This document shows positions 1 to 37,865 of a DNA stretch of 53,460 nucleotides, piece after piece; the stretch's first letter is position 1; every line of letters begins with the position of its first letter. The stretch is taken from NCBI RefSeq assembly GCF_000485595.1, contig NW_014577081.1:991438-1044897 (forward strand), given 5' to 3'. The translations under genes were made by a program, and so were the position numbers. The notes under the pieces are model-generated. The model ran no database searches. It was given only the letters and a program-made list of their open reading frames with translations, and was not told the DNA's origin. The stretch is from Priapulus caudatus. Taxonomy: Eukaryota.

Positions 1-92
1 GTCGCCGGCTGGACAGTGGGGACCGACTGTGGCTGCGGTAGTCCCTGTTGCTGCGGCCGTAGTGCGGCGAATTCGATCTCGAGTAGGAGCGA
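1..92 (-). CDS. tra2: tra2 exon preceding the RRM (RSYSRSNSPHYGRSNRDYRSHSRSPLSSRR...), truncated by the window edge
   Basis: Acceptor CTTTTCTGCGCAG, phase 2. SRSPLSSRRRH matches the conserved Tra2 SRSP(M/L)S.RRRH.GNR pre-RRM motif; the duplicate at 10593-10711 shows the ending RRRHASNR|GT. Confidence 0.9.
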
Positions 93-109
93 CTGCGCAG
101 AAAAGCACG

Positions 110-258
110 CGCTCGTTACGCCGACCTTGACCACAGGCCGCAACCCTACGACCTTGATTTCAGGTCGCAACCCTGTGACCTTGATCTCACGTCACGAACC
201 TACGACCTTGACCTCTGGTCACAACCCCGCAACCTTGACCGGAGGTCGCAACCCCACG
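110..258. repeat. About 27-bp intronic minisatellite (about 5 copies, ACCTTGA...GGTCGCAACCCT)
   Basis: Directly visible tandem units next to the tra2 acceptor. Confidence 0.8.
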
Positions 259-649
259 AAAGTAGGGGTAGTAGTCCCCTTTACAAAAGTAGAGCACTTT
301 ACGTCGGCTGGGTGAATTTCGCCCCCGTTACGTCCAATTACGAACGTGGGCGACGTTCGCTTGTTGAACAATGCAGCGTGCGATCGCGCCGCTTCGCTAC
401 TCGTGCTGCTATGACACGTTATGTTGTTATCAGTCTCGCAGTTTTCTATCTAGGGGATTACGATCGTGACAGCCATGTCTGTGTGCGTGTGCGGCCAAGT
501 GTGACCCCGTCAATCTCACACAAAATTCATACACAAGGAAGAAACAAAAAGCATACATCAGCGACACTTAACATCGACGAATACACATAATTAATGAACG
601 AAAGCAGTCATACACGACAATGACCCTTCTTTTTTAAATCTCCACAACT

Positions 650-655
650 TTTATT
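650..655 (-). terminator. Candidate poly(A) signal for the BEN-exon isoform
   Basis: AATAAA on the minus strand about 550 nt after the BEN stop, followed by a T/GT-rich tract (about 520-600), and upstream of the next tra2 acceptor at 93. Confidence 0.55.
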
Positions 656-1207
656 AAGAAATTTACAACGAAACACGATTTACACAATATAATACAAGAG
701 GAATCGGCCAGCTACTGCTAAAAAGCTTCGTTCTTACTTCACGAGCGAAGAACGAGCGAGCGCGTTAAATAAACGACGAGAGAAAAAATAAATTACATCC
801 GAGGCCTGTCCGCGCATTCCTGTAACGTCCGTCCGACGACCAGACTGCGACCGCTCTCCCACGACAACGGAGACGACGCGCAGCATCCGATATCGTTCCC
901 GTCTCGTGGGAAGCCTCGTCGCCGCGGAAACGCCGCGACACCACTGATCAATCGTCCCACGACAACGTGGGGCGCGCAGCATCTGAGATCCAAGAAGCCT
1001 CGTTGCCGCGGAAACGCGAGATCGTGCGACGGCCGCGCACCTCGAGCCACGCAGAATTGCCACGACAGATCCACGACGCGAGGTATCGATCGATCATTCT
1101 CCAGTAGTCGCCACTAACGCTGTCGCGAATCACGGGAGAGGATCGCTCAATTGTCTCACGCATGACGTCTCTTTTAGCCTGCAGATGGCGCCACCATTGC
1201 CGGTCGA

Positions 1208-3098
1208 TCACTCGATCGTCTCGCAGGAGGCGCCACCGCCGTCGCCCCCCGCTCCTCCGTTCTCCACCGCGCCCCCCGCCTCCTCCCCTCCCCCTCCCAC
1301 TCCCCCCGGCCCGTACTTCTCCAGGTCCTCGAGGTAGGCGCGGCGGCACTTGTCGTTCATCGCGTGGCGAATCGCGTGTCGGCGCGCGCCGTGCGCGAGC
1401 GTTCCCGGGAACTCGACCTCGAGCTGCGAGAGGATCGCGTTCACGCGCACGGGGTCGAGCTTCTGCTTGCGTATGCGCCCGTGCTTCGTCAGCACCATGC
1501 CTCCCTTCAGCGTCGAGCCGCGCAGTTCGGCACGCGAGAACAGCAGTGACATCAGCTTCAGCACAAAGTGGTTCGAGGAGAGGCGCGCGCGCTCGAACGC
1601 GGCCTCGTAGACGCGACGCGGGATCTCGATCGGGCGCCAGCTGTGCGGCGCCAGCACCACGTTGTCGCCGACGACGACGCCGTACGCGGGCTTCACCGAC
1701 AGGAACTCTCCTCCTCCTCCTGTACCGACGTACGGCTGGACGGCGGCGGCGGCTGCGGAGGAGGAGGGGGGCTTCCACTTCGGCTGGTGGTAGAGTGTGA
1801 GGGACGACGGCGACGCGCCGGCAGGGGGCGCCGCCGCGTGCGCCGCCGACAGCAGCGTGTTCTCGGACTCGCGCACAAGCAGCGGCAGCGCGTCGACGAG
1901 GAACGCGTCCTGCTGCTGCTGCTGCTGGGTCGTCGTCGTCGTCATGGGCGACAGCGACGCGGACGCGCGCAGGCTCTGCAGCATGTCCGGGATGTTCGGC
2001 GGAGGCTGCGCGAAGCCGCCGTCGCCCCCGGTGATCACCGGCAGCCAATCGGCAAACTGCGACGCCGCCGCCCCCGGCTCCTCCTTCATGGCCGCCGCCA
2101 CCTGCAGGTCAAAGGTCACGGCGCCGCGGCAGCCGGGCGCCGGCCCACTCAGCTCCGACTTGACGGTGTCGAACGCGCCGAGGTCGTCGGGGTGCGACGC
2201 CGGCGCCACCTGGTGCTGCCGCCTCCTTGCGGCGGCGGCGTAGATGTGCGCCGAGGACGCCGGGTAGTAGGGGGCTCGAGTGGCGCCCTCCGGCGGCAGC
2301 GGCGAGTGCGCGGACAGGTTCGTGCTGCGCGAGTCGTCGTCGCAAACCTCGCCGCCGCCATCGTCGTCGTCGCTGTCGTCGAGTTCGATTATCTCCGTTA
2401 TGTACTTCTCGACGTCCGACCGTCGTTGCTGCTGCTGCTGCATCGTGCTGGAATCCGCCGTGTGCCGCCGTGCCGCACCGCCAGGGGGCGCCTCCGACGT
2501 CGTCTGCTCCTTGCCGAACCGTGATTCCGCGTCGATCGCGTCGTCAACGGCGACGACGTTGCCCGGCAACGGCGCGCATCTCGCGTCCGCATCCGCGCAC
2601 GCCTGTGCCACGCGGCATGCCCCCCTGCTCCCTCCACTGGCGCCCTCTCTCTTCGGCACGACCGCGCCCCACGGCGCCAACGTCTGAGCGCCCGTCGCAA
2701 CCGCTTCGCCTCCCGCGAGCAGACGCGCCGCCGCGCCGACCGCGGGTTGCCGCGGCGACGGCTCGGCGGCAGCCTCCCGCCACGATGTCAGCGTCTGCGC
2801 GAGTTCGCGAAGCTCTTTGATGATCGTGACGTTCTGTTGTTCCATGCGATCGAGCCGCTTCTCGATGTCGGCTAGCCGCGAGTCGACGGGGGCGCCACCG
2901 TCGGCGTGCGAGTCCGCCGCCGGCGCCGCCGCGGCTACGGAGTTTTCGCGAGCGCGCGCCGGCAGCGTCGCCGCGCGTTGCAAAGCGTGGATCGGAGATC
3001 GCGAGATGAGCGCTGCGAGCAGGTCGCCGTACGCGCCCGCGCCGCCGGCGGCGTCGTCATCGCTACTCCGCGCCGCGTTCTTCCTGCCTCGCTCCGAT
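1208..3098 (-). CDS. Large terminal exon encoding a coiled coil, a low-complexity linker and a C-terminal BEN domain; nested in a tra2 intron
   Basis: The 591-aa ORF extends open to the acceptor TTCTTCCTGTCTGTGTTGCAG at 3099. The C-terminus (HFVLKLMSLLFSRAELRGSTLKG...KQKLDPVRVNAI...IRHAMNDKCR, about 1343-1580) has the BEN-domain pattern (LF..EEL..S..G, LDP..V..I, I...IN.KCR). Heptad segment RLADIEKRLDRMEQQNVTIIKELRELAQ. Domain recognised by eye. Confidence 0.85.
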
Positions 3099-3629
3099 CT
3101 GCAACACAGACAGGAAGAACGGCGTTGTCAGTTCCGAAGAACCTGCGGCGCGCGGGCCGCCTCCGTTCTCCGTTCCACGATCCTCGCTTTGCAACGAACG
3201 GCGCATCACCCTGCCCCCCCCCCTTTTGCGACGGAAACGCGATTTCGGGAAAACGCGCGACCGAGTTCGTTTTTGTCGTGTTTAAAAAAAAAAAACGGAG
3301 AGACTGCTCGGGTTTTAGTTCGACGCTTCGGCGACCTTTGGCTTTCTCGCGAGTCGGTTATGCACACGATCGCACACGAAACCGCACGCACACAGACATG
3401 GTCTGACAGTTGGTGGAAATGGTACAGGGGTGAAATTCACTCAGTAGCCTTTCGACATGCATTATTTATAACTCATTTCTGTTGAACTATTTTTTAGAGT
3501 GAAACCCTAGTATAGCATATGATATGGTTAAAGAGAAACTAAACTGCAGAAAAATTTGTGCTAATAATGTATCTACAATCTACCAGGAAAGTAATACTAG
3601 GAACGTTACATGAATTTGTACACACTTAC

Positions 3630-3644
3630 CTTCTGCTTCTTGAA
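3630..3644 (-). CDS. tra2: tra2 15-nt microexon (Y-SRSR-S/R)
   Basis: TTTTTTTTAG|TTCAAGAAGCAGAAG|GTAAGT: consensus acceptor and donor bracketing an in-frame SRSR. Confidence 0.75.
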
Positions 3645-3863
3645 CTAAAAAAAACCACGAGAAATACATTTAGTGATGATATGACAAAACATTTTAATTA
3701 AACCAATAGAACTTGATAGTATTTTTAAAACAATATAAAATCTAATTGCTTTCTTTGTAGGTAAAAATATTTGACTAGGCATCGCTTAGCAAGATTAAAT
3801 ATGAGCGATGAATTTTAATCATAGATCTGTTTCATTTTAATCAAAGATCAAAGATCTACTTAC

Positions 3864-3950
3864 TATGACTTTGACTTCTTTCCTTTGGAATACGACCGTG
3901 ATCTTGAGCGACTGTATTTCGTGCGTTTTCGTTGTGACCGCGACCGGCTC
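3864..3950 (-). CDS. tra2: tra2 87-nt RS exon (SRSRSQRKRTKYSRSRSRSYSKGKKSKS)
   Basis: Acceptor CTTGTTTCAG, donor TA|GTAAGT, strongly RS-rich, phase 2-2. Confidence 0.85.
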
Positions 3951-4140
3951 CTGAAACAAGTGAACGAAGATGCGTTATCGAACCGCCATTGTGCCGTCGA
4001 TCGTTTTTCGATCATTTAAACCCTAAAAAATCTAAACATTAAGTTTAACACCTGTTTATAAGTCTCAAATAGTAAAGTAGTAAATCACGCTGGTTCGATC
4101 GCCGTTACTTAAGCAGAATCTCATTCTGTTAGACTGTTAC

Positions 4141-4176
4141 GTTCTCTTCTTCTTATCCTTGCGAGACCCGTACATT
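4141..4176 (-). CDS. tra2: tra2 36-nt phase 2-2 exon (R-MYGSRKDKKKR-T), with in-frame ATG at 4175
   Basis: Acceptor TTCTCTCACAG, donor AC|GTAACA, basic NLS-like peptide in frame with the flanking RS exons. Confidence 0.6.
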
Positions 4177-4318
4177 CTGTGAGAGAACTGATGCCTAGGG
4201 AGCGATGATGTGTGCTTGGATATCGAGCACGGCAGGATAGGAGCATGCCTGGCACGCGTCACCTGCCAGCTACAGGCGGACTAGTTACACTGCAGCCAAG
4301 GAGCAGCAGTGGACAGTA

Positions 4319-4469
4319 CAGTCAAACCTCGGTTATCCAAACATCAATTATCTGAATTTCGGATTATGCGATCTCAAGGTCCCGTGAATATTTAATAAGC
4401 CACTAGACCATCAGTTATCTGAACAAAATACTCCCCGCCCGTCTCGTTCGGATAATCGAGGTTTAATTG
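4319..4469. mobile_element. Tc1/mariner-pogo type MITE
   Basis: TA flanks; TIR CAGTCAAACCTCGGTTATCC / GGATAATCGAGGTTTAATTG (3 mismatches). Confidence 0.75.
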
Positions 4470-4508
4470 TAATCGGTTCGTTGCCACCATCATGTCATGT
4501 CAGCTTAG

Positions 4509-5131
4509 CAGTGCTCAATTTTAAGGTTTTTTTTGGGTTGTCCGGAGGACAACCAAGAGAGTAGCATATGGTTGTCCCACAAGAGTTTTGGTTGTCCGGA
4601 TATTATTTAAACATGTGCTGCATGCGCTCTGCTCACGTGATGCTCAGTGCTGTAAAGCAAAAGGCCTAATCATTATATGAAGAGAATAAAATATTGGTAA
4701 TGTGGTAAATGATGCTGGGATCAATGACGTATAATAATAGTAATTAAAAGTTGCATGAAATTTATTTCATAACATTTACATTAAGTTAACTAACACTACT
4801 AACATTACTAACATTACTAACATTACTAACACTGTGTCAAGTCACAGATGAGTAAAAATTGAAAATTAACACGAAACATTGTGTTGTTAAACACGTGATG
4901 TTATACTTTGTATCAAGCAAGCCAAACAATGCGTCTAGACATGTACGTTTGCAGCGTATTGTGCAACCCTTACCTGGCCGTATGTAAAATGAACGCGCGC
5001 ATTAATAAATTTATGAATATAAATTTTTTTATAGAGGTTGGACACCGGACAACCACGGAAGCAATTTGTAGTTGCCCGAGAGAAAATCCAGTCGTCACGG
5101 ACGACCGGACGACTGTTAAAATTGAGCCCTG
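4509..5131. mobile_element. Non-autonomous TIR element, 623 bp, 5-bp TSD CTTAG
   Basis: TIR CAGTGCTCAATTTTAA / TTAAAATTGAGCCCTG; CTTAG on both sides; absent from the duplicate copy (empty site about 13730-13740). Confidence 0.85.
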
Positions 5132-5169
5132 CTTAGCATCGTCAAACCACACAGCCACTGAAGCCACGC

Positions 5170-5790
5170 AGTGTAACGCTGTTACCTTTAATGCACTTAC
5201 CCCCCTCCACCTCCACCGCACCACAACAAGCTATTACTTTCAATGCACTTACCCACTTAACTACCGCACCGCAACAGGCTGTTACCTTCAAAGAATTTAC
5301 CCCCTCACTACAGCACAACAACAGGCTGTTACTTTTAATGCACTTATCTCCACCCATCGCACAACAGGCTGTTACCTTCAATGCACTTACTCCTCTCTAT
5401 CCCACAACAGGCTGTTACCTTCAATGCACTTACTCCCCTCTATCCAACAACAGGCTGTTACCTTCAATGCACTTACTTCTCTCTATCCCACAACAGGCTA
5501 TTACCTTCATGCACTTACTTCTCTCTATCCCACAACAGGCTATTACCTTCAATGCACTTACTCCCCTCTATCCAACAACAGGCTGTTACCTTCAATGCAC
5601 TTACTCCCCTCCTCTACGACACCAGGACAAGCTGTTACCTTCAATGCACTCACCCCCTCCTCACGACAACAAGCCATTACGCTTGATGAACCTACCCCTT
5701 CTCCATTCCGCCTCGACCAGCCGTTAACTTTACAGACATACCCCCTTCTTAACTGCCTTGTGGCACGGTCTTACCTTCAATGCACTGCCA
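5170..5790. repeat. About 42-bp minisatellite (ACAACAGGCTGTTACCTTCAATGCACTTACT...)
   Basis: More than 10 visible tandem units; they account for the repetitive ORFs 4908..5894 and 5191..5727. Confidence 0.9.
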
Positions 5791-6666
5791 CCCCCCCCCC
5801 TCACACACACACAACCAACCCCACTACACTGCACTACGCCGGCGAGTTATCGTCGGCTCTCCGACCTCGTAAGAATCAACCACGGCGCTCGTAAAAAACT
5901 ACGACCTTGGCAGTGCAACGATTGGGGCGGACGGATCGGCCGCTCGGTCGCGCTGTTAATTAGATCCGATGAAGTCGAAGATGAACGCAAACGCCGGCGC
6001 GTGCGAAAAAACTCGGATCTGGAGTGACGCACGCTCGCGACTGCGGCAGAGGGGAGGGAGCGAGTTGGAAACGTTGCCAGAAAGAATTGGGACACGCGAA
6101 AAAACGAGCAAGACTGAAGGATGATTGATCGATCGATCTACGAGCAGTCGCGCAGAAAAACCACCTTCCGCTCAGTCGAGGTGCACCGTGATCTAGGCCG
6201 CTCACCGACACACGCAGGGGTATACTGGTGAGGAACAACCAACCTCATGTAACTACATGAGTGTAGCTATATGTACATGTATACATATACTATATATATA
6301 TATATTATTGTGTTCGTTCGCGCATGCGTCTTTGTTTGTTTACGTTCGTTTGTTTGCTTGTTTCTGGTTTCCGTATACATGCACGTGTCTGTCTGCGCAC
6401 GTGTGCAAGTAACAAATAAACAGCAACGAATACAAACAAAAGTCAGCGAGTCTAGATCCGCGCCCCCCCTTCTCTCTCTCTCTCTCTCTCTCTCTCTGCC
6501 AGCCCGTGCCAAGGGTATGAGCGCAGGAGAGTCTCTAGTACTCCCTACACCCCATACAACCCGAGAGAGAGCACGCACGCACGCGCGCGTGCAGGGAGCG
6601 GGCGGACGCGCGTGTTTTGTCACTAACACACTACATCCATCGTGAGGTCGACATGCGGTTTTACTC

Positions 6667-6683
6667 TTAGTATCGGTCCCGAC
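6667..6683 (-). pseudogene. tra2: tra2 last coding exon (R-RDRY-stop)
   Basis: GCTTGCAG|GT CGG GAC CGA TAC TAA; Tra2 proteins end in an SPRRY-like sequence. Confidence 0.65.
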
Positions 6684-7049
6684 CTGCAAGCAACAACATC
6701 ATCATGGCTCCGCGGAGCGATCGAGCGAACTTCTATTGCAAGGTGGCGCCACGTCACCGTTCTACGCGTGTGCGGGGAATTTCCCCAAAGCATTATGGGA
6801 GAGTGCAAGGCGGCGGTGCTGCTACGCACTGTCTAATCGATTATATATGAAGCTTTCGACACCAAATGAGGCTAACATAGGGCTAACCGAGTAATATCTG
6901 TAAGCGAATAACTAGGTTTGAGGAGCGGGGGATGTTAAACGCGGGGTACGCTATGTGGTCGCATGGCGGGCCGGCTTTACGTGGATCGTGAAGCTGTACT
7001 TCTGTAATCGTACTTCACTATTCTAGGCGGGGGAGACGTTTCGAATGTA

Positions 7050-7560
7050 TTAAGCATGGCCTGTGTGGGAGCTATTATAACCTGCTACAGTTGCTTCTAA
7101 CGGTACCCCCATCCCCTGAATGTATGAACTAGGGCCTGTGTGGGACGTATTACAAACTGCTACAGTAGCTTCTAACATCGCTCCCCACAATCCGAATATA
7201 TTTGACAGTGCCTGTGAGGGAGATATTATAACCTGCTACAGTAGCTTCTAACATAGCTCCCCACCCCCTGAATGTATTCAGCATGGCCTGTGTGATTTAT
7301 ATTATAACCTGTTACAGTAGCTTCTAACATCACTCCCCATCCCCTGAATGTATTAACTAGGGCCCGAGTGGGAGATATTACAAACTGCTACAGTTACTTC
7401 CAACAGCACCCCTCCCCCTAATCCAAATGTATTTGACAGTGCCTGTAAGGGAGATACTACAAACTGCTACAATGGCTTCTAACCATACCCCCCGCCCCCC
7501 ATTCCCGAATGTATTGGGCAAGGCCTGTGTGGGAAATGCTACAGTTCCTATCTAAGCCCC
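7050..7560. repeat. About 75-bp minisatellite in the last tra2 intron
   Basis: Recurring GCCTGTGTGGGAGATATTACAAACTGCTACAGTAGCTTCTAAC units. Confidence 0.8.
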
Positions 7561-7713
7561 ACCTACAATTAAGCCGTCCTTATACGCACTGCGCTGGGCG
7601 TCGTCGCCCCCCTCCGCTGCGTGTTTCCGCACCCCCGGCGCGGCCATTCAGACGCCAGGCAGCGGGGACGCCAGCAGACGGGGGCAAACGCGTGATTCAT
7701 CCCGGTACTTTAC

Positions 7714-8005
7714 GCGGAGATACGAGCCGCGGACCGGTCGCAGCGCGATAGCCGAGGCAGTAGCCGCGCCCTCCCTCTTGTATCCTCCTCCTCGCGTCCT
7801 CCTCCTCCGTAGCCACCTCCTCCTCCGTCAGCCGGCTCCTCCTCCAGCCGTACCCTCCGTCCTCCTCGCTGTTAGCCGCCTCCTCCTTCTCCTCCGTTAC
7901 CCTCTCGCCGCCGCCGTATCCGCCGCCTCCTCCCTCGCTAGCCTCCCCGCCGCCCGTAGTCGTTCCTCGACGGCCGCCCCCACCGCCCGCGCGCCTCCGC
8001 CGCCG
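7714..8005 (-). pseudogene. tra2: tra2 Gly/Tyr-rich plus RS2 exon, noisy copy
   Basis: GGGGYGGG-type repeats ending in SYSP-like codons and a GT donor. Confidence 0.65.
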
Positions 8006-8244
8006 CTGTAAGCCCGCAGACGACATCGTCGGAGTTATTTGACGCGGGTAACCGCGGAGACGACGCGGCATTTTGTATCGAATTTTTTTCCATACTAGAA
8101 TTTCGTTTAAAAAACACGCGATACAAGTCCCACGTCTTAGCGACAGTCGCCGTTTTTTTTCCCGAACCACTTTTTTCAAAGACCGGCCGCGCAGCGTATC
8201 TTAGATCTTGAGATAGGGGTGGGCCGGAAAGCGGGATATCGTAC

Positions 8245-8366
8245 CGCCGGTGGGTCGACCAGGCTAGAAACTTCGGGGTGGGTGTGTGCGCACGCTTTCG
8301 TGATCGAGTAGTCGGACTCGATTGCGCGCCCATCCAGCCCTCTATGCCGGCGCAGCTCTCCTTCGC
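8245..8366 (-). pseudogene. tra2: tra2 RRM exon c plus linker (AKESCAGIE.DGRAI..DYSITKRAHTPTP)
   Basis: The Tra2 signature DYSITKRAHTPTPG is readable across frameshifts in ORFs 7938..8459 and 8176..8472. Confidence 0.85.
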
Positions 8367-8974
8367 CCTTGGCGCGTGTGCGCAAATAACAGAGAACGTC
8401 AATAATGACGACCGCAGTCGAAACAGAAACCCCCCCCGCAGCCGTCTCCACGAAGGCACCGTAACAATACAACTACTCCTTGCAGATTGTAGATGTACAT
8501 ATATAATTGCTTGACAGCCTGGCAGTTTAAAAAGGCTAGCGATACATGCTCAATATATAACACTGGCGAATCCTTGTACGCGTATCCCTTCGCGAACCGA
8601 GCAGCAGCATTGCCTTACCCCCAAATCACGCGAGACACAGACGACAAATCGACTGGCCACCCTCAAATGAAAACTTACAGTAGGCGGCCTACCTATGTGA
8701 GTAAAAGTCGGCCGCTGCAATGCTTAAACTATTAAAGACTCTACACACCACGTTACTAAACACCACGTTCAACCTCGCTCAGATACTGACATGCACTCTT
8801 TTTTTTACTACGCCAGAAAGAAGGGCAGGGAGGGAGCGAGGAGGGAGGGCAGGAGGAGGACCAGCGGAGGAGGCAGGGAGGAGAGGAGCGCAGGAGCGGA
8901 GGGCGAGGGAGCCGAGGGAGGGCAGCGAGGAGCGCAGGAGAGGAGGAGGACGCCACATCCCACAGCCTACTCAC

Positions 8975-9035
8975 TCTGTCGCATTCATCTTGATTCTTGT
9001 AGTGGACGAAGGCAAAACCGCGAGACTTTCCCGGT
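8975..9035 (-). pseudogene. tra2: tra2 RRM exon b (GKSRGFAFVHYKNQDECDR)
   Basis: RNP1 motif RGFAFV; acceptor CCCACAG, donor GTGAGT; its 61-nt length implies an indel. Confidence 0.85.
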
Positions 9036-9405
9036 CTGTGGGAAAACAAGGCGAAGCACGTTAAGGCACTGAAGTTAAAGTTTGAAGATGAGATTCTAGC
9101 ATATGCAATCTGGGCCTTCATTGTCAGAAACAAAATGACTTTAGTCTCAATATTAACTTTGTCTAAAGTGTCACTCTGCATGTCTGTCACAGACAGTGAG
9201 CGCGGAGAGAAACAAGTGAACAGTCGTGCCGGCCAAACCGCCTCACTGCGCCCCCGCCGGCATTCAAGCCGCAAACGGATCTCGCTCCGAAAACACGACG
9301 TTCACTTGTCCACTACGTGCGTAAACGGCGACGACGATCAGAAATCGAACGAAACTTCGCGCGCAAAAAAACAAGAGCGTCGCGCAGCGAGTGCGCCCAC
9401 CTTAC

Positions 9406-9538
9406 CCTGTGGTCGTAGATGACCGAGCACTCCTCCATGGTTCCGTAGCGGCCGAACATCTCGCGGATGTCCCGCTCGGCTCCAGTTACAGCCGAGCAGT
9501 CCGAACACGCCGAGACAGCGGCTCACCTCGGGCGCCTC
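9406..9538 (-). pseudogene. tra2: tra2 RRM exon a, frameshifted copy (EAPEVSRCLGVFGL...ERDIREMFGRYGTMEECSVIYDH)
   Basis: The RNP2 motif CLGVFGL is diagnostic of Tra2; AG/GT boundaries present; the frame shifts after VFGL. Confidence 0.85.
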
Positions 9539-11187
9539 CTGCGGACAGCCAGGGGGCGCCGGTGAGCACTCGCGAGATTACGCGACGGGACGCGCGGACC
9601 CGAGCGATCAAAATTACTAACGCGAGATAGATAGGTATAGGAGATAGCACTATGCTAGGCTATAGGAGATAATAATATGCTAGGTAGCCGTAGCCAGTTC
9701 GACATGCCGGTTAGCAAAGAACCCTATAGAGAAAGGTAGATATAGAAGGCCCTTAGCACTCCTAAGGACAACTCCCTCCTAAGGGACACCCTGCTTGCTG
9801 CCCATGAGAGAGAGGTCCTTATGGCTAAAAAAAAATGGTTCCGAGAACCCACCCTACCTAGCAAATAGCGGTCCGCACCCTTTTTTTCCTCCATTTAAAA
9901 AAAAATATCAAAATTTATCAAAAATTTAAGAATAAAAATAAATTCAATCAATTATCAATTCTCAAAAATCAATTATCAATTCCAAAAATAAATCACTAAC
10001 TCCAACATATGCTACTCACCTCACCATCTACAACACGGACATTTTCGGATCTTTTTTTATTTCAAAAAAAAAATCGCGGTGACCTGACTGACCGCAGCCT
10101 AAGTTTTTCAGAGGACCGCTTCTCGGAAACACATGCATTTATTTTGTTTTAGGCGCTCTATCGCTAAGCAAGGATGCCTTTTGACCCATTTGCCCTTTCC
10201 GCTAATTTCCACGAGCGATTTTGCTCGATGGCCGTACGAAGTGGGCGCGGGAGGATTCAGCAGTCTTCTATCATCAGCCTAAAACAAGCAAATCGACCGG
10301 CTACAATAACAATTTACGGGATCCGGCGAATCGTGACGGCCGCGCACAGCACAACTACAGGGAATCGTCTAGACGATGTGGCGTGCGGTGTGGGGGGGGT
10401 AGGTGGATGGGTTGCGAAGCGAGAGAGACGGCAAGTTACGCGTTTCGCAGATCTATTCTATACTCACAAAATCCATGCATATATACACCGGACACTGACC
10501 ACGCTCGCGCAGTTCGTTAGTTTCAGCTCGGCCGCGCGTATAATAACACATATTTTGACATGGAGAAGAGATCGGCGAATCGTTCCACTGACCCTGTTGC
10601 TTGCGTGTCGTCGCCGGCGACAGCGGCCGACCCGACTGTGCCTGCCCGCTTTAGTCCCTGTTGCCTGCCCGCCCGTAGCTGCGGCGAATCCGATCTCGCA
10701 GTAGGAGCGACCTGCGCAGAAAGCACGCGCTCGTTACGCCCGACCTTGACCAGGCACGCAACCCTGCGACCTTGATTTCAGGTTGCAACCCTGTGACCTT
10801 GAGTCTCACGTCACGAACTACGACCTTGACCTCTGGTCACAACCCCACCACCTTGACCGGGCCGGTGCGCGCAACCCACGAAATAGGGGTATAGTCCCCT
10901 TTTACAAAAGTACGAACACTTATACGTCTGCTGGGTGAATTTACGCCCCCGTTACGTCTCATTACGATCGTGGGCGCCGGGTTACTTGTCAAATAATGCA
11001 GCGTGCCGACTCGCGCCGCCTTCGCTACTCGTGCGCTATGCAACATTTATTGTTATCACGTCTTGCGTTTCTATCTAGGGATTACCGATCTGACAGCCGT
11101 GTCTCAGCTGTGCGTGTGCGGCAAGTAGTGACCCCGTCAATCTCCACACAACTTCATTTACANNNNNNNNNNNNNNNNNNNNNNNNN

Positions 11188-12293
11188 CCAATCGCAACTG
11201 CCGACGCCGCCGCCCCCGGCTCCTCTTCATGCCGCCGCCACCTGCAGGTCAAGGTCACGGACGCCGCGGAGCCGGCGCACGGCCCATCAGCTCCGACTTC
11301 GGCGTGTCGACGCGCGAGGTCTGTCGAGGGCCTGCGACCGCCGGCGCGCACCTGGTGCGCCGCCTCCTTGCGCGGCGGCGTTAGATGTGCGCCGAGGAAG
11401 CCGGGTTAGTAGGGGGCTCGAGTGTGCGCCTCCGGCGGCAGCGGCCGGTGCGGGATAGGTCGCTGCTGCGGATGTCGTCGTCGCAAACGTCGCCGCCGCC
11501 GCCATCTCGTGCGTCGCGCTGTGCGTTCGATGTTCGATTATCTCCGTTATGTACTTCCTCGACGTCCGACCGTCGTTTGCTGCTGCTGCTGCAGCTGCTG
11601 GATCGCCGTGTGCCCGTGCCGCACCGCCAGACGAGGGGCCGTCGGGCCCTCCGACGTGGGTCTGCTCCTTGCCGACCGTGATTCCGCGTCGATCCGCGTC
11701 GTCAATGGCGGATCGACGTTAGCCGGCAACGGCCTGCGTGCCGTCTGCGCGTCCGCATTCCTGGCGCACGCTGTGCCACGCTGGCACGCCCCCTGCTCCT
11801 CCACTGGCGCCTACTCTCTTCGGACACGACCGCGCCCACCGGCGCCAACGGTACTGCAGCGCCCGTCGGCAACCGCTTCGCCCTCCCGCGAGCAGAGCGC
11901 CGCGGCCGCGCGAACGCGGGTCTGCGGCGTCGGCACGGCTCGGCGGCAGCCTCCGCCACGACGTCAGCGTCTGCGCAGAGTTCGCGAAGCTCTTTTGATG
12001 ATCGTGACGTTTCTGTTGTCTCATGCGATCGAGCCCTTACTCGATGTCGGTAGCACGCGAATTGTCGACGCGGCGCCCGTCGGCGTGCGAGTCCGCCGCC
12101 GGCGTCGCCGCGCGGCTACGGACGTTTTTCAGCTGCGGCGGCGCCGGCAGCGTCGCCGCGGCGGGTTGCATAAGGTGGATCGGAGATGCGAGATCGAGCG
12201 GCTGCGAGCAGGTCGCCAGTACGCGCCCGCTGCCGCCGGCAGGCGGCGGCGTCGTCATCGCTACTCCGCGCCGCGTTCTTCGGCTCGCTCGAT
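11188..12293 (-). pseudogene. Frameshifted copy of the 5' part of the BEN exon
   Basis: Colinear with 2045-3098, with many 1-bp indels. Confidence 0.85.
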
Positions 12294-15200
12294 CTGCCAA
12301 CAAGACAGAGAACGGACGTTATTGTCAGTCGCGAAGAACCTTGCCGCGCGCGGGCCGCCTCCGTTCTCGATTCCGATCCTCGCTTTGCACGACGCGCGCA
12401 TCCCCTGCCCCCCCCCCTTTTGCGACGGTAACGCGATTTCGGCGAAACGCGACCGACACCAGTTTGTTTTTGATCAGGTGTTTAAAAAAAAAAGGAGAGA
12501 CTGGCTCGGTTTTAGTTCGACGCTTCGGCGGACCTTTGGCTTTCTCGTGAGTCGGTTATGCACTCGAGTCGCACACGAAACCCACGCACACAGACAATGG
12601 TCTGACAGTTGGTGGAAAAGGATACAGGGGTTGAAATTCATCGGCCGCTAGCCTTTCGAATGCATTATTTATAACTCACTTCTGTTGAACTATTTTTAGA
12701 GTGAAACCCTGTATAGTATATATGAATATGGTAAAGAAAAACTATAACTTGCCAGAAAATTTGTTGTAATAATGTATACAGCTCTACCAGGAAAGTAATT
12801 CTGGAAACGTTACATGAATTTGTACACCTTACTTCTGCTTTGAACTCTAACAACACCACGGAGAAATACATTTAGTTGCTGATATGCAAAAGATGTGTTA
12901 ATGTAAACCAAATAGAACTTGATAAGTATTTTAAACAAATAAAATCTTAATTGCTTTCTTTGTAGGTAAAATATTTGACTAGCATCGCCTTGAGCAGATT
13001 AAATATGAGCGATGATTTTAACATTAGATCTGTTTCATTTTAATCAAAGATAACAGATCTATCTTACTATGATCTTGGACTTCTTTCTTTTGGAATACGG
13101 ACCGTGACTTGCAGCGACTGTATTTCGTGCAGTTTTCGTTTAGGTGACCGCGACTGGCCTGAAACAGTGAACGAAGATGCTTATTCGAACCGCCATTGTG
13201 CCTGATCGATCGTTTTTTCGTCATTTAACCTAAAAATTCTAAAAAATTAAGCCTTTACACCTGCTTATAGTCTCAATAGTCAAGTAGTAAATCACGCGGT
13301 CGACGCCGTTAACTTACAGCGAATCTCATATCTGTTAGACTGTTACGTTCTCTTCTTCTTATCCTTCGCGAGACCCGTACATTTCTGTGAGAGAATGGCA
13401 TGCTGGGAGCGATGAAGTGTGCCTGGACATCGAGCACGAGCAGGATAGGAGCCATGCTGGCACGCGTCACCTGCCAGCTACAGGCGCGACTAGTTTACAC
13501 TCCAGCCACGGGCCAGCAGCAGGTGGACAGTACAGTGAAACCCTCGGTTATCCAACATCAATTTATCTGAATTTCCGGATTTAATGCCGATCTCAAGAGT
13601 CCCAGTGAATATTTAATATGCACTAGACATTCAGTTATCTGAACAAAATACTCACCGCCCGTCTCGCCCTCGGCACTAAACGAGGTTTAATTGTAGATCG
13701 GTTCGCGGTGGCCACGCATCATGTCATGTTCAAGTTAGCATCGTCAAACCACACAGCCACTAAAGCCACGCAGTGTAACGCTGTTACCTTTAATGCACTT
13801 TACCCCCCCATTCCACCTCCACGCACCACAAAAGCAATTACTTTCAATGCACTTACCCACTTAACTACCGCACCGCAACAGGCTGTTACTTCAACGAATT
13901 TACCCCCTCGCATACAGCACCAAACAACAGGCCTGTTACTTTTAATGCACTTCTCTCACCCATACGCACGCGACAACGGCTGTTCCTTCATGCACTTACT
14001 TTCTCTCTATCCACAACGGCTATACTTCAATGCACTTACCCCTCTGGTTTATCCAACAACAGGCTGTTAACCTCAATGACGTATCCCCTCCTCTACCACA
14101 CCACGACAGCTGTACCTTCAATGCACTCACCCCCTCCTCACGGACCAAACAAGCCATTAGCGCTTATGAACCTACCCTTCTCCATTCCGCCTCGACCAGC
14201 CGGTTAACTTTCAGAACATACCCCCTTCTTAACTGCCCTGTGGCACGTGTCTTACCTTCATGCACTGCAACCCCCCCTCACCACCACAACACCAACCCAC
14301 AGTACACTGCACATACGCCGGCGAGTTACATCGTACGGCTTCTCCGACCTTCGTAAAGAATCAACCACGGTCGCTCCGTAAAAACTTTACGACCTTTGGC
14401 AGTTGAACGATTAGGGTTGCGGACGGATCGGCGCTCGTCCCGCTGTTGATTAGCTTCCGATGCAAGTCTGAGATAGACGCAAACAGCCGGCGCGTGCCGA
14501 AAAACTCGATCTGGAGTGACGCCGCTTCGCGACTGCGGCAGAGAGGGAGGAGCGAGTTGGAACAGGCTTGCCAGAAGAATTGGCAACGCGAAAAACGGAG
14601 CCAAAGACTTTGAGGATGATTCGACTCGATCGATCTAACGAGCAGCGCCGCCAGAAACCAGCTTCCGCTTCAGGTCGAGTGCGCACCATGATCTAGGCGG
14701 CTTCACCGGACACCACGCAGGCGGCTTAACTGGTAGGGGAACACCAACCTCATGCTAAACTACATGAAGTAGCTTATTTAAATACATAAATCAGGTGGCC
14801 CCATTATACGCGCCGTTGAGGTTCAATAAATGTTCATCCAGGAAAAGGGGCTCGCGCTAAATCAGCAGATTCAAAGAAAATCCAACATACATAGACACAT
14901 GCACACTAAGCAAATACATTGTAAACTCATTAGATTGCGCGATGTATATATGCGATCGGCGCTTCGACCTAAGGCCTTTAACCCTGAGTTAAGCCCCTCT
15001 CAAACAACATTTTTCAGTTCCGGAAAAAGCAAAAAAAAGCCCAATGACTCATCGCGTTATATCTGAATTTCCATTAAATCGGGGCGCGTAAAATCAGGGT
15101 TTGTAACAGGGCACGAAGTTAATTCGGCCACCGGCATGTATGCCAGCAAATTATTTGAGGGCCAGGTAACGATTGGCCAAACAGCGAGCACCTCTAAGAC

Positions 15201-19558: not shown

Positions 19559-19674
19559 CTCGTCTTGGAGCGCGATCTGGAAAAGGAATGACTGCGAGAG
19601 CGAGATTTCAAGGAAGGATTCACATCATTGGGAGATCCGCCCCTGCCACGTTTCTTCACCGCAACCGTGCTTCC
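19559..19674 (-). CDS. tra2: tra2 exon 2, start of RS1 domain (GSTVAVKKRGRGGSPNDVNPSLKSRSRSHSFSRSRSKT)
   Basis: Acceptor TTTCCAG, 116 nt open in phase 0, RS dipeptides, donor AG|GTTCGT (phase 2) compatible with all downstream RS exons. Confidence 0.75.
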
Positions 19675-20300: not shown

Positions 20301-20315
20301 CTCATCGTCACTCAT
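20301..20315 (-). CDS. tra2: transformer-2 homolog, coding exon 1 (MSDDE)
   Basis: Minus strand ATG AGT GAC GAT GAG followed by donor GTATAA (phase 0). An MSD-acidic start is typical of Tra2 proteins, and it joins in frame to the RS exon at 19674. Confidence 0.75.
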
Positions 20316-30689: not shown

Positions 30690-30968
30690 CAGAGATGCCA
30701 ACACATATTTGAAGCAATCTGTAGTTTCTGGACATCAAATTAGTAGTTTGAGGGTCACGCAGTGACACGAGTTTGCTAGGGGGGTCCGGCATGACCCCCG
30801 GAAAATTTTTTGATTCTGAGATGCAATTTCCTGCATTCCGAGGGTAAACGAATTTGTTTTTTTTTTATCATAGTGAAATTCGTAGTTTGATACAAACTGG
30901 TCGTAGTGGTGCAAAAAGAATAGAAATTCGTATAAAATACGAATAAATCGTAGTGGTTGGCATCTCTG
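30690..30968. mobile_element. MITE with a 13-bp perfect TIR and 6-bp TSD TCCCTC
   Basis: CAGAGATGCCAAC / GTTGGCATCTCTG with TCCCTC on both sides. Confidence 0.8.
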
Positions 30969-30994
30969 TCCCTCCATCCCCGCATCCACCTCAC

Positions 30995-31834
30995 CTGCTG
31001 ATCCTCATCCTCCATGTGGTTGCCATAGATGAAGCATCCGCGCTTCGACGCATGTCCGTGCAAGTCGATGTAATAGGCGAGTCCGCTCTCCGCTGCCGGC
31101 ACCGCCGCCGCCTCCGCCTCCGTGTACTCCACGTCCCGCCACCGCCCCCACGCCGACCCCGCCCCTGGGCCACGCCCGAGCCGGTCCTCCAGTGAGACGC
31201 TCCCCATGCGGTCGACGAGGTCAGGGATCGTCACCGCGGCGACGTCATGCGGGGGCGCCGCAGCCGCCTGCACGCAGAACTTCTTCGGCGGAGAGCTGTA
31301 CTCGCGCGCCGGGGATCCCGGGGACGCGGCGGGGTCAGGGGTCGCGGCGAGGTCGCGCTTGTCGCACGTCGTCGTCGTCGTTGCCGCGGCGATGGGCTTC
31401 CTCGCGCGGATCGCCGGAAAGAAGGCGCCACCGTCACGCGCCCGCGCATCCCTCCAGGTGTAGCTGGCGATGTCGCCCGTCGCGGCGATATCGTCGACGT
31501 CGGTTGCCGTGCCGACGTCGGTTGCCGCGGCAATGCTGCCGTTGCTGCTGCTGTCCGTCTCGAAAACGCCGTCGCCCGTCGCGGCGTGGCTGCTGGTGAG
31601 CACGACGGGGGCGCCACCGCTGTCGACGCGCTCGATCACGGGCAGGCGCTGCAACCTCGTGGTCTCCTCCTTGCCCGGGTGCGACTTCCTCCGCTCCTGC
31701 GCCTCCCTGCCAAGCTTCCCCGCTTTGCCGCCGTTCCTCCGGCCCCCCGCGGCGTCCTGCGCCGCGCTCTCCTTCGTCTTCCCCCGGCCGCCCTTCTCTT
31801 CGTCCCTCCCCTTCCCCTCCCCCCGCTCTCCGCT
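30995..31834 (-). CDS. AGBL5: AGBL5 large exon (low-complexity insert plus [24 protein letters not shown]); 5' end lies in a gap
   Basis: Zn-ligand motif DLHGH with the AGBL5-typical ASKRGCF.YGN; donor CAG|GTGAGG. Confidence 0.92.
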
Positions 31835-32083
31835 NNNNNNNNNNNNNNNNNNNNNNNNNGGGAGAGGGGAAGGTCGACGATTAATCGAACTAATTAATTA
31901 CTATTAATTCATTATTAGAAGAAATAATTCAATAGAATTCAATATACTCAATAAAAGACGAAATGAGAGTTAGCACGCGTAGATCTGGAGATGTATAAGG
32001 ATTATTCCCCCCTTCCAGCAGGTAATAAACCATAATAACGCGGGGAACCACCGCCGCCGTATTTCACGAGCGTTGCTACGCAC

Positions 32084-34081: not shown

Positions 34082-34376
34082 CTAGAGCAAGAGAGAGAGA
34101 GAGAGAGCGTGGACGTTGAGCGTGCATGTGATGGCAGCGCGCACGGGCGATGTGTAGACTCGCCACGACTACTTTTTTGTTTGTGTGTGTGTATGCAAGC
34201 CTACTGGTACCACCTGATGTATGATATAAGGTAGCACCTAGCAATGGCCACGACTAACGTCATCAGAGCACGTGGGACATAGTATTTCTCTCGTTAGTAG
34301 ATGCATCGATGCAAAGATGTGATAACTAAACTTTTAATCCGGCTCGAAACATTGCGGGTGAGTTACGAAGCCTTGC

Positions 34377-34471
34377 CTGTTTCCGTTCTCGTACGCTGTG
34401 CCTGCACAGTCCGGTCTGGTCCACACATTGAACTCATAGTCAGGCTCATTGTCATCATTCTGCGCGCTAGT
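34377..34471 (-). CDS. AGBL5: AGBL5 coding exon 2 ([22 protein letters not shown]), GC donor
   Basis: Near-identical to the AGBL5 motif [19 protein letters not shown]; a second copy lies at 36296-36390. Confidence 0.92.
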
Positions 34472-34661
34472 CTGCAATAAATGATAAACGACGTTTCCCA
34501 ACGTGCTTGCATGATCGAGACGCACTACCCGTGCACCTGCCTGCGAGCCTCGATGTACCCGAGTTCTCTGGTACAGCATTCTCGAATACACGTTGCAATC
34601 TTACGCGTGCAATAAAAGTGGGAGATAATTCTCGAATATCAATTTTTCATGATGGCCTTAC

Positions 34662-34748
34662 CAGACTCCGATCCACTTGTTCGACTCTCCTGAGATTTCC
34701 GGAGTCGAACTTGGAGGTAAAGAAAAGTCCACCACAGTGCACCTCCAT
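34662..34748 (-). CDS. AGBL5: AGBL5 coding exon 1 ([25 protein letters not shown]), copy 1
   Basis: FDSGNL motif and an ME..CGGL.F start characteristic of AGBL5/CCP5. Confidence 0.92.
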
Positions 34749-36022
34749 GCTGCGTCTATGCTGCGGGGACTTGAACGTGGATCTTAGCAGGTGTCCATAT
34801 TTCTAGTACCAATATAGTTGGAGTTATTGTAATCTGCACATTTTATTTTAATGGTGTGAAACATGACATGACCCCAACATTGTTTAAATGTTGCAATACT
34901 CACAAACATTTAATGGCCAATGAAATGCACTGGTAGCAGAGTAGAAGCCACATAATTTTTGGTCACTACTTAGTACTTAAAATTTTTTCAGCAGAATAGG
35001 AAACTGACTTAAGTTCTGTGCAAACCTCCATGTAAGTGTTTACATAATTTTGCTGCTCAAGTGGAACATGCCTGTAGTTATGCGATACGTCCATGACGAA
35101 CTTCAATTCTTAAGCCTCAGGTTTATCCATGACTTACACATGTATGAAGCCAGTGGCTGCTCGTCCGAATGTATTACCAGCAAATCGTGAGATTGCATGT
35201 CAAAAACCATCTGTTGATAGATATATGAATTGATTTATGTGTGCTACATACTCGGATGTCTCACAGGCAGAATGAGGGTACACCCAACAATCTTTATGAT
35301 TTATCTGAAACGTAATATAAGCCGAATTCTAGAATATTTGTAGATCTATAAAATTCTGACTGGTCACTGGACGAGCAGACACGGCTGTAGATTCCAGCGA
35401 GTCAGTATGTCACTATCTTAGTATCTTAGCTTAGCTATCTCTAGTATAAGTACTGTAGCTCTAGTACTATAGCCCGCGTTCATTAACTGCCGCAGGACTA
35501 TAGAACATTGTCAGCTTAATTTCGCTACTGCATTTGATCCCGATTGGTTCCACTGAAAAATGGCTCAGAAAACGCAAAATGATCGGGCTTTTTAACATTT
35601 ATTTATCTACATGGATACCAGATATGTAGGCAAACACATGGCATCTATGGTGCATGTATATACAATACCGGTAACGTCACGCGTTCGCACGCCACAATAT
35701 TTCAAATGGTACAGCCAGTAGTGCTGACTTGTGAGGAATAAAGATATTAAAGGCATAAATACATGGTGTAAAGTTGTGGAAAGTGTTCAAAAAGATAGGT
35801 GAGATGTCCATGTAGATAAATAAATGTTAAAAAGCCCGATCATTTTGCGTTTTCTGAGCCATTTTTCAGTGGAACCAATCGGGACCAAATGCAGTAGCGA
35901 AATCGAGCTGACAATGTTCTATAGACTAACTGCCTATTATTAGACTATTATAGACTAACTGCCTATTNNNNNNNNNNNNNNNNNNNNNNNNNNNNNNNNN
36001 NNNNNNNNNNNNNNNNNNNNNN

Positions 36023-36102
<80 letters not shown>

Positions 36103-36295
36103 TGTGTGTGTATGCAAGCCTACTGGTACCACCTGATGTATGATATAAGGTAGCACCTGGCAATGGCCACGACTAACGTCATCAGAGCACGTGGTCCATA
36201 GTATTTCTCTCGTTAGTAGATGCATCGATGCAAAGATGTGATAACTAAACTTTTAATCCGGCTCGAAACATTGCGGGTGAGTTACGAAGCCTTGC

Positions 36296-36667
36296 CTGTT
36301 TCCGTTCTCGTACGCTGTGCCTGCACAGTCCGGTCTGGTCCACACGTTGAACTCATAGTCAGGCTCATTGTCATCATTCTGCGCGCTAGTCTGCAATAAA
36401 TGATAAACGACGTTTCCCAACGTGCTTGCATGATCGAGACGCACTACCCGTGCACCTGCCTGCGAGCCTCTATGTACCCGAGTTCTCTGGTACAGCATTC
36501 TCGAATACACGTTGCAATATTACGCGTGCAATAAAAGTGGGAGATAGTTCTTGAATATCAATTTTTCATGATGGCCTTACCAGACTCCGATCCACTTGTT
36601 CGACTCTCCTGAGATTTCCGGAGTCGAACTTGGAGGTAAAGAAAAGTCCACCACAGTGCACCTCCAT
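36296..36667 (-). CDS. AGBL5: Second near-identical copy of AGBL5 coding exons 1 (36581-36667) and 2 (36296-36390)
   Basis: About 34180-35967 is repeated from about 36100 onward (offset 1919 at the exons) across an N gap. Confidence 0.85.
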
Positions 36668-37858: not shown

Positions 37859-37865
37859 TAAGTAC

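What the first reader, a model, noticed from the sequence alone, without database searches (positions are those of the whole stretch)
1208..4176. tra2 locus predicted to encode a second protein: an RS-BEN chimera via an alternative terminal exon
Seen in sequence: the 1.9-kb BEN exon lies on the same strand between tra2 RS exons (3630-3950) and the tra2 pre-RRM exon (1-92). It has a strong acceptor at 3099, an in-frame TGA 10 codons upstream in the intron, and no in-frame ATG until the middle of its coiled coil (2845). Its acceptor phase (2) is the same as that of the tra2 exon it competes with, and it has its own AATAAA at 650-655. Joining 20301-20315 + 19559-19674 + 4141-4176 + 3864-3950 + 3630-3644 + 1208-3098 gives 2160 nt, an uninterrupted 719-aa protein (MSDDE...KSKSYSRSR|RSERGRKNAAR...BEN). 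Established: Tra2 is an RS-RRM-RS splicing regulator (sex determination in insects), and BEN domains are DNA/chromatin-binding modules (BANP, BEND3/5/6, Insensitive/Elba). Inference: one gene switches between an RNA-binding splicing factor and an RS-tagged DNA-binding factor, which could couple chromatin to splicing and would also lower Tra2 output. I know of no described Tra2-BEN isoform, but I could not search for one.
Basis: partly seen in the sequence, partly recalled or inferred. Interest (0 to 1): 0.92.

Follow-up and report, generated by a model that had tools for sequence, protein, structure and literature searches.

The report
Tra2 gene makes an RS-BEN chimera
In this invertebrate, the gene for a Tra2-type splicing regulator also splices its arginine/serine-rich front end onto a hidden last exon for a predicted BEN DNA-binding domain, so one gene likely makes both an RNA-binding splicing factor and a DNA-binding protein.

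Summary
Largely confirmed, now with RNA evidence. In one RNA-seq run, 5 of 250 reads laid on 2800-4250 join the 15-nt tra2 exon (3630-3644) to the acceptor at 3098; that run has no reads in the intron in front and covers the exon through to its poly(A) signal. The domain folds as BEN (pLDDT 94.6; best solved match Z 13.9), although Pfam stays under its cut-off (20.3 of 23.2 bits). Listed variants in the exon are 11 silent to 3 changing, and a 38%-identical homolog keeps the residues around the acceptor. Corrections: the 36-nt exon 4141-4176 is skipped (48 reads), so the supported product is 707 aa, not 719; the 10-kb second copy in the window looks like a raw long read. New: a hairpin covers the BEN acceptor and two nested complementary arm pairs flank the exon, a candidate RNA switch (predicted only). 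Related BEN domains sit behind RS, NAP and Tudor front ends in other invertebrates. Not shown: protein, full-length mRNA, DNA binding, tra2 linkage in a second species. It works like CSB-PGBD3; no Tra2-BEN report was found.

The parts
19559..19674 (-). tra2 RS exon 2
   Evidence: AG/GT; its 3' end is the loose end of 48 reads at 3952
4141..4176 (-). possible in-frame 36-nt cassette exon, AGAA-rich, skipped in the runs laid
   Evidence: AG/GT; zero depth in X4; 3 AGAA in 36 nt
3864..3950 (-). shared tra2 RS exon
   Evidence: X4 depth about 129 at its middle
3630..3644 (-). shared 15-nt tra2 exon; its donor goes either to 3098 or to 92
   Evidence: loose ends at 3100 (5 reads) and 3864 (23 reads); joint 94-3864 with these letters between, in X1 contig and X4
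3424..3444 (-). outer upstream complementary arm (pairs with 308-328)
   Evidence: 21 nt, 86%; duplex -30.6 to -33.0 kcal/mol
3385..3408 (-). inner upstream complementary arm (pairs with 467-489)
   Evidence: 17 nt at 100%; duplex -45.9 kcal/mol; 0 of 300 shuffles reach the score
3070..3125 (-). predicted hairpin that pairs the pyrimidine tract of the BEN acceptor with the first exon bases, which include an AGAA motif
   Evidence: -31.9 kcal/mol sense, -23.2 antisense; 0 of 1000 shuffles, window chosen after the fact; 4th and 7th of 103 windows in an unbiased scan; larger stem 2969-3001/3171-3203, z -3.56
1208..3098 (-). coding part of the alternative last exon (630 codons to TGA)
   Evidence: open frame; X4 depth in all 17 bins from 601 to 3150; 11 silent: 3 changing variants
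2789..2878 (-). likely coiled coil (heptad pattern by eye; no predictor run)
   Evidence: kept in P0001 and P0002
2375..2392 (-). SIM-like hydrophobic-acidic motif; two psi-K-x-E motifs follow at 2153-2164 and 2078-2089
   Evidence: same motifs in the same order in P0001, not in P0002; reading as SUMO motifs is recalled consensus
1307..1700 (-). BEN domain (Pfam core 1346-1570)
   Evidence: PF10523 E 6.6e-4, 20.3 bits, cut-off 23.2; model pLDDT 94.6; Foldseek and VIA-align BEN matches
630..1207 (-). 3' UTR of the BEN isoform with AATAAA at 650-655
   Evidence: X4 depth 26-67 over 601-1200 and 0 over 151-600; signal; cleavage site itself not mapped
467..489 (-). inner downstream complementary arm
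308..328 (-). outer downstream complementary arm
1..92 (-). canonical tra2 exon before the RRM, cut by the window edge
   Evidence: joint and depth; open frame in the canonical join
5133..14791 (-). indel-rich second copy of the same locus, including the RRM exons near 9405-9560, 8975-9035 and 8230-8380; likely a raw long read in the assembly
   Evidence: about 85% identity, 25-N gap at 11163-11187; 166 inserted, 78 deleted, 119 substituted letters, 160 single-base gaps; RRM_1 hits on 2 of 4 fragments

Best explanation
The 1.9-kb BEN exon is an alternative last exon of this Tra2-type gene: the donor at 3630 is spliced either to 92, giving the RS-RRM splicing factor, or to 3098, giving an mRNA that likely ends after the AATAAA at 650 and would encode a 707-aa RS-coiled coil-BEN protein predicted to bind DNA. 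Shown: both joints in RNA, coverage of the exon and its 3' UTR, the open frame, mostly silent variation. Inferred: 77 Tra2 residues give the protein its start codon and an RS tag for nuclear or speckle targeting and contact with spliceosomal RS proteins; the coiled coil dimerises it; the BEN domain reads DNA as in BANP, NAC1 and Insensitive, most likely as a repressor or insulator-type factor. The choice is likely a kinetic race set by RNA structure: a hairpin hides the BEN acceptor, and if transcription passes the poly(A) site uncut, two downstream arms pair with two upstream arms, loop out the exon and bring the donor within about 400 nt of the canonical acceptor. Every BEN mRNA is one RRM mRNA less; an AGAA in the hairpin could let Tra2 itself open it (speculative). 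My odds: isoform real 0.9, translated and under selection as a fusion 0.75, RNA structure sets the choice 0.4, Tra2 feedback 0.25.
For: Junction: 5 of 250 X4 reads on 2800-4250, full agreement; one of only 3 loose ends listed; X4 depth 0 over 3143-3828. Coverage of all 17 bins 601-3150 in X4, of part in X2 and X3, and a contig piece 1426-1795 in X1. Share of the shared-exon depth: about 10% next to the junction, 20% on average, 46% in the 3' UTR. Selection: 11 of 14 listed coding variants silent against 26% expected, p 6.5e-5, pN/pS about 0.10; the one indel listed is in frame. Homolog P0001 (38% over 90%) aligns from the residues that span the acceptor and not further upstream, and has 16 identical blocks of 5 or more residues; P0002 keeps coiled coil and BEN. 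Fold: the first 15 Foldseek rows shown are all BEN structures; VIA-align Z 13.9, rmsd 2.6 over 119 residues to NACC1 BEN, first non-BEN row Z 5.2; atlas top rows BEN. Structure: arm scores 36 and 27 against shuffle maxima 30 and 23, 0 of 300; arms properly nested, 185 nt from the donor and 215 nt from the canonical acceptor; BEN acceptor is the most paired of 6 acceptors (0.78 against 0.45-0.65).
Against: The junction rests on one run, about 55% of it read, with 51-52-nt reads; X3 gave 9 reads and no listed junction. No read links the ATG exon to the BEN exon. X4 depth dips to 1.4-2.2 over 2701-3000 against 12-25 over 2251-2700, below a GC-plus-position fit, which an internal start could explain; 26 loose-end rows and 14 variant rows were hidden. 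X2 and X3 have a few intron reads in 3301-3750 (depth up to about 1 in narrow bins). Pfam BEN is under the curated cut-off. The place of P0001 and P0002 in their genomes is unknown, so a conserved tra2 link is only suggested. The long-range duplexes are no stronger on the transcribed strand (-45.9 vs -42.4; -30.6 vs -37.4), so they may be relics of transposon ends. AGAA density in the first 200 nt of the exon is ordinary (5 per kb).
Confidence: 0.75

Rival explanations
1. A separate nested BEN gene with its own start inside the intron or exon makes most BEN mRNA (for example from the ATG at 2845 or 2443); the tra2 junction is a minor read-in.
For: Depth dip at 2701-3000 in X4 and higher depth further 3'; a few intron reads in X2 and X3; many relatives are stand-alone coiled coil-BEN proteins.
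Against: No X4 reads in 3143-3828 and only the tra2 exon at the 3100 loose end; depth falls with distance from the 3' end (rho -0.85) and with GC (rho -0.75); no AG with a pyrimidine-rich tract in 2500-3090; conservation with P0001 begins at the acceptor, 84 codons before the first ATG, which sits inside the coiled coil.
Confidence: 0.13
2. The exon works mainly as a trap that lowers Tra2, like the vertebrate poison exon, and its protein is a by-product.
For: The two outcomes exclude each other; vertebrate Tra2b is limited through a poison exon and binds AGAA (PMC11791180, listing and passages).
Against: A last exon with its own poly(A) signal has no downstream junction to trigger decay; 630 open codons, pN/pS about 0.10 and 80% identity of the BEN domain to P0001 point to selection on the protein.
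Confidence: 0.08
3. For the flanking arms only: they are decayed terminal inverted repeats of a mobile element that brought the BEN exon in, and have no present role in splicing.
For: No strand preference of the duplexes; BEN relatives occur as multi-copy families in echinoderms and in bracoviruses and poxviruses.
Against: Arm spacing is 16 nt upstream but 139 nt downstream; the arms recur nowhere else in the window except the noisy copy and, for the inner pair, loose matches to CA/GT repeats; a 17-nt perfect match is hard to keep over the age implied by 38% protein identity unless selected (inference); no transposase was seen in the exon.
Confidence: 0.35
4. The arrangement is an assembly artefact that dropped a BEN gene into tra2.
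For: The window is visibly mis-assembled: a noisy duplicate of the locus with a gap.
Against: Both copies carry the BEN exon start in the same intron, and RNA reads join the tra2 exon to it.
Confidence: 0.02

Closest known systems
CSB-PGBD3 (ERCC6 intron 5, primates; PMC2268245, abstract and outline read)
   Same: An intronic, intronless DNA-binding module used as an alternative 3' terminal exon, joined in frame to the host N-terminus, made beside the normal protein and kept by selection.
   Different: The captured module here is coiled coil-BEN, not a transposase; the host is a splicing factor, so the swap is RNA-binding for DNA-binding; no dispersed target elements are known; no protein evidence here.
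Drosophila mod(mdg4) isoform C (PMC4281564 and PMC5094011, passages)
   Same: A BEN domain present in one isoform only of a multi-isoform gene.
   Different: Front end is BTB, already a chromatin protein; here it is the RS1 region of Tra2. That mod(mdg4) uses many variable last exons and trans-splicing is recalled, not read.
BEN-solo and single-BEN factors: Insensitive, Bsg25A/Elba1, BANP, NAC1, BEND6 (PMC4281564 passages)
   Same: Same predicted fold (TM 0.62-0.66 by query to BANP, Bsg25A, Insv), C-terminal position, long final helix.
   Different: Only 14-23% identity; extra N-terminal strands and a two-strand insert in the model; belongs to an invertebrate subfamily with an invariant Gly in that insert; has no start codon of its own before the coiled coil.
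Vertebrate TRA2B poison exon (PMC11791180, listing and passages)
   Same: An alternative exon in the RS1 half of a tra2 gene that diverts transcripts from making Tra2.
   Different: Poison exon is internal and non-coding and leads to decay; this exon is terminal, polyadenylated and codes for 630 residues.
Exon loop-out by long-range pairing, e.g. the alternative last exon of FGFR1OP2 (PMC8052449, passages)
   Same: Complementary intronic arms around an alternative exon and its poly(A) site; looped exons are included less.
   Different: There conservation and knock-down data support the pairs; here the arms come from one genome and are untested.

Membership tests
BEN domain | Pfam PF10523 at or above gathering score | tested here: not met
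   16.5 bits on the whole ORF, 20.3 on the domain, cut-off 23.2; profile covered 1-76 of 76. 10 of the 35 homologs scanned exceed the cut-off.
BEN domain | BEN fold | tested here: met
   Model pLDDT 94.6, pTM 0.87; Foldseek E 3.6e-4 to BANP; VIA-align rows 1-13 all BEN, Z 13.9 to 5.8; all 4 weak PDB sequence hits are BEND3 or BANP.
BEN domain | Sequence-specific DNA binding through the last helix and a minor-groove loop | not testable with these tools
   The last helix is basic and near-invariant N, C, R lie in it; binding not tested.
Tra2 (host gene) | N-terminal RS region followed by one RRM | tested here: met
   22 RS/SR dipeptides in the first 78 residues; RRM_1 hits on 2 of 4 fragments of the noisy copy, E 0.002.
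Tra2 (host gene) | RRM closest to Tra2 proteins, with the Tra2 linker after it | tested here: inconclusive
   A 25-aa fragment ranks CELF proteins 1-3 and TRA2B 4-7 of 53; two other fragments found nothing. The window text KRAHTPTP after the RRM is the Tra2 hallmark by my recall only; the clean RRM lies outside the window.
Alternative 3' terminal exon capture (CSB-PGBD3 type) | Host donor spliced in frame to the captured exon | tested here: met
   5 junction reads; open frame.
Alternative 3' terminal exon capture (CSB-PGBD3 type) | Own poly(A) site inside the host intron | tested here: met
   AATAAA 650-655; X4 depth drops from 26 in 601-750 to 0 in 151-600; tail not seen directly.
Alternative 3' terminal exon capture (CSB-PGBD3 type) | Fusion protein detected | not testable with these tools
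   No proteomics available.
Alternative 3' terminal exon capture (CSB-PGBD3 type) | Captured exon derives from a transposon | tested here: inconclusive
   Intronless and flanked by inverted arms, but no transposase domain and no genome to count copies.
Alternative 3' terminal exon capture (CSB-PGBD3 type) | Fusion conserved across species | tested here: inconclusive
   P0001 keeps the residues around the acceptor, but its contig could not be fetched; no fused homolog among 7996 candidates in each.
Poison exon (AS-NMD) | Premature stop upstream of a later exon junction | tested here: not met
   The exon is terminal and open for 630 codons.

The most novel reading that the evidence does not exclude
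One tra2 gene is a switch between an RNA-binding splicing factor and an RS-tagged DNA-binding factor, set by a hairpin and long-range pairing that Tra2 itself may sense, and it is one case of a wider habit in marine invertebrates: coiled coil-BEN exons captured again and again as swappable DNA-binding tails by splicing and chromatin genes (an RS gene in starfish, SET/NAP in Priapulus, a PHF20-like gene in a crinoid).
Probability: 0.3. Interest if true: 0.88.

Novelty: new variant of a known kind. Interest (0 to 1): 0.76.

Why it matters
Tra2 is a deeply conserved splicing regulator whose known side products are truncated or decayed. Here a sizeable share of its transcripts (roughly 10-45% of shared-exon depth in one sample) swaps the RRM for a DNA-binding fold under purifying selection. 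An RS domain tied to a sequence-specific DNA reader would be a direct way to bring splicing machinery to chosen loci, which is a long-standing idea with few natural examples. It also shows how new transcription factors can arise inside essential genes without a new promoter, and gives a compact, testable RNA switch.

Tried and rejected
No whole genome was held, so copy number of the exon and arms could not be counted. A search with tra2 exon 2 found no protein at E<=1 among 22 candidates (weak). A search with P0002 found only itself. The metagenome scan had 167 pattern matches and no relative; the viral scan did not run on the alignment. The run finder listed no indexed holder on record as RNA; X2-X4 came in by species label and X1 is RNA by guess, though it holds a spliced joint. 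The atlas gave no usable hit for the starfish RS front end, so its host gene is unnamed. In the BEN tree (56 rows; 4 of 60 proteins left out: P0034 and P0050 by choice, the rest for short matches) only window+P0001 is a starred clade; the starfish RS-BEN rows do not group with it, so I treat them as a separate origin, without a clade test. Literature: tra2 + BEN domain 4 unrelated papers (listing); BEN domain + RS domain 0; Priapulus + tra2 0; BEN domain + lamprey 2 unrelated; transformer-2 + terminal exon/fusion/chimeric 20 of 26 listed, none relevant by title; unhelpful. The paper that defined BEN was not held. PMC8228293 passages added nothing. Earlier findings by place, words and sequence were empty. 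My first guess of a lamprey was dropped because named relatives are all invertebrates. No complex prediction was sent.
Full report
Observation. The BEN exon has an in-frame stop 10 codons upstream, its first ATG at 2845 and one AATAAA at 650-655. All upstream donors from exon 2 on are phase 2, as are both competing acceptors.

The assembly. The window holds a second copy of the locus at about 85% identity (2045-4510 against 11188-13740; 1-523 against 10610-11151; 5133-6286 against 13735-14791) with a 25-N gap. It differs from the clean copy by 166 inserted, 78 deleted and 119 substituted letters, 160 gaps being single bases. That profile fits a raw long read, not an old duplicate (inference; error profile recalled). 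It also lacks a 623-bp inverted-repeat element present in the clean copy, so it may be the other haplotype. It carries the RRM exons: 2 of 4 fragments hit RRM_1, and one ranks TRA2B 4th to 7th of 53 behind CELF proteins. The name tra2 therefore rests on the RS-RRM layout, these hits and a recalled linker motif. The organism was not determined; named relatives of the BEN domain are from Priapulus, echinoderms, a hemichordate and amphioxus, and a priapulid is my untested guess.

RNA evidence. Four runs were laid on 1-4500 and two on 2800-4250. X4 (about 55% read) is the informative one. It covers all 17 bins from 601 to 3150, has no depth in 151-600 or 3143-3828, and gives three loose ends on 2800-4250: at 3100, 5 reads in full agreement that spell the 15-nt exon 3630-3644; at 3864, 23 reads (0.95) that go through the same exon into the exon at 92; at 3952, 48 reads into the end of exon 19559-19674. 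The 13 loose letters at 3100 occur once in the window at up to two mismatches and differ from the intron. So one donor is used with two acceptors, and the 36-nt exon is skipped, which makes the supported chimera 707 residues with 77 from Tra2. Against this: X3 gave 9 reads and no listed junction; X2 and X3 have a few intron reads in 3301-3750; X4 depth dips to 1.4-2.2 over 2701-3000; 26 loose-end rows were hidden; reads are 51-52 nt, so no full-length molecule is shown; X2-X4 are one study. BEN depth is about 10% of the shared exon next to the junction, 20% on average and 46% in the 3' UTR; depth falls with GC and with distance from the 3' end.

The protein. Pfam BEN covers the whole profile but stays below the cut-off (16.5 and 20.3 bits against 23.2). 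The domain found 58 proteins at E<=0.001; 10 of the 35 scanned exceed the cut-off. A model from 55 sequences has pLDDT 94.6; its best solved matches are BANP, Bsg25A, NACC1, BEND6, Insensitive and BEND3 (Z 13.9, rmsd 2.6 over 119 residues; first non-BEN row Z 5.2). Of the 14 coding variants listed for X4, 11 are silent where 26% would be expected (34% for transitions only; p 6.5e-5 and 8.5e-4); 14 weaker rows over the whole stretch were hidden. P0001 (unnamed, 38% over 90%, 80% in the domain) aligns from the residues that span the acceptor and shares the coiled coil, a SIM-like motif and two psi-K-x-E motifs. This suggests the same acceptor in a distant species, but its contig could not be read. 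P0002 shares coiled coil and BEN but not those motifs.

RNA structure. A repeat search of the intron found two nested arm pairs around the exon: 3424-3444 with 308-328 and 3385-3408 with 467-489. Their alignment scores, 36 and 27, were reached by 0 of 300 dinucleotide shuffles (maxima 30 and 23). The outer pair lies 185 nt from the donor and 215 nt from the canonical acceptor, and the poly(A) signal is inside the loop. The duplexes show no preference for the transcribed strand, so a transposon relic is a fair rival. Separately, the pyrimidine tract of the BEN acceptor pairs with the first exon bases (-31.9 kcal/mol sense, -23.2 antisense; 0 of 1000 shuffles for a window chosen afterwards; ranks 4 and 7 of 103 in an unbiased scan, behind the 27-nt repeats at 101-240 and one coding window; larger stem z -3.56). 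In human genes such pairs lower the inclusion of looped exons, including an alternative last exon (PMC8052449, passages).

How it most likely works. Shown: alternative splicing to a terminal exon. Inferred: a race between use of a hidden acceptor plus cleavage near 630, and transcription of the downstream arms that loop the exon out. The product would keep the Tra2 start and RS1 region, dimerise through the coiled coil and bind DNA through BEN; BEN proteins are linked to repression and insulators (PMC4281564, passages). Tra2beta binds AGAA (PMC11791180, passage) and one AGAA lies in the exon arm of the hairpin, but AGAA density in the exon is ordinary, so feedback is speculative.

Wider pattern. 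Among the 58 hits are a starfish RS-coiled coil-BEN protein kept in two Asterias species (P0042, P0059), a Priapulus NAP-BEN protein (P0057) and a crinoid Tudor/MBT-BEN protein (P0024), several named as numbered isoforms. They do not group with the window's domain. These are gene models whose exon structure I could not see, so repeated capture is a lead only.

Comparison and verdict. It works like CSB-PGBD3 (PMC2268245, abstract) and resembles the BEN-bearing isoform of mod(mdg4) (PMC5094011, PMC4281564, passages); it is not a poison exon. Searches for a Tra2-BEN or RS-BEN product found nothing relevant; the library lacks most subscription papers and no supplements were read, so an unremarked annotation may exist. 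New variant of a known kind; interest 0.76.

Noticed in passing
window 4509-5131: 623-bp element with 16-bp terminal inverted repeats and a 5-bp target duplication, absent from the noisy copy: probably a polymorphic MITE-like insertion.
   Followed up: partly
window 122-254: 27-nt tandem repeat just before the canonical acceptor at 92; the most structured windows of the 4.2-kb scan (z -3.3). Could also affect acceptor choice.
   Followed up: partly
window 4141-4176: In-frame AGAA-rich 36-nt exon candidate, skipped in the runs laid; may be tissue- or sex-specific.
   Followed up: partly
window 45189-46367 (-): Single-ORF sulfotransferase (PF00685, E 7.6e-32) with a membrane-anchor-like stretch; looks like a heparan sulfate 3-O-sulfotransferase (recalled).
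   Followed up: no
window 30779-31897 (-): GC-rich ORF without Pfam hit whose 3' part reads like an exon of a cytosolic carboxypeptidase (recalled motif).
   Followed up: no
P0042 / P0059 (Asterias), P0057 (Priapulus), P0024 (Anneissia), P0051 (Branchiostoma, isoform X35): Related BEN domains behind RS, NAP/SET, Tudor/MBT and other front ends; possible further captured last exons.
   Followed up: partly
runs X2, X3 against X4: Depth on the shared tra2 exon is about 1-2 in X2 and X3 and about 129 in X4 at similar read numbers; cause unknown.
   Followed up: no
window 4317-4472: High depth with many variants and loose ends in all four runs: a dispersed repeat in the tra2 intron.
   Followed up: no
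window 34178-38528: Near-identical 1.27-kb duplicate (34178-35448 and 36097-37367, 99%) and inverted copies around a gap; probably another assembly overlap.
   Followed up: no
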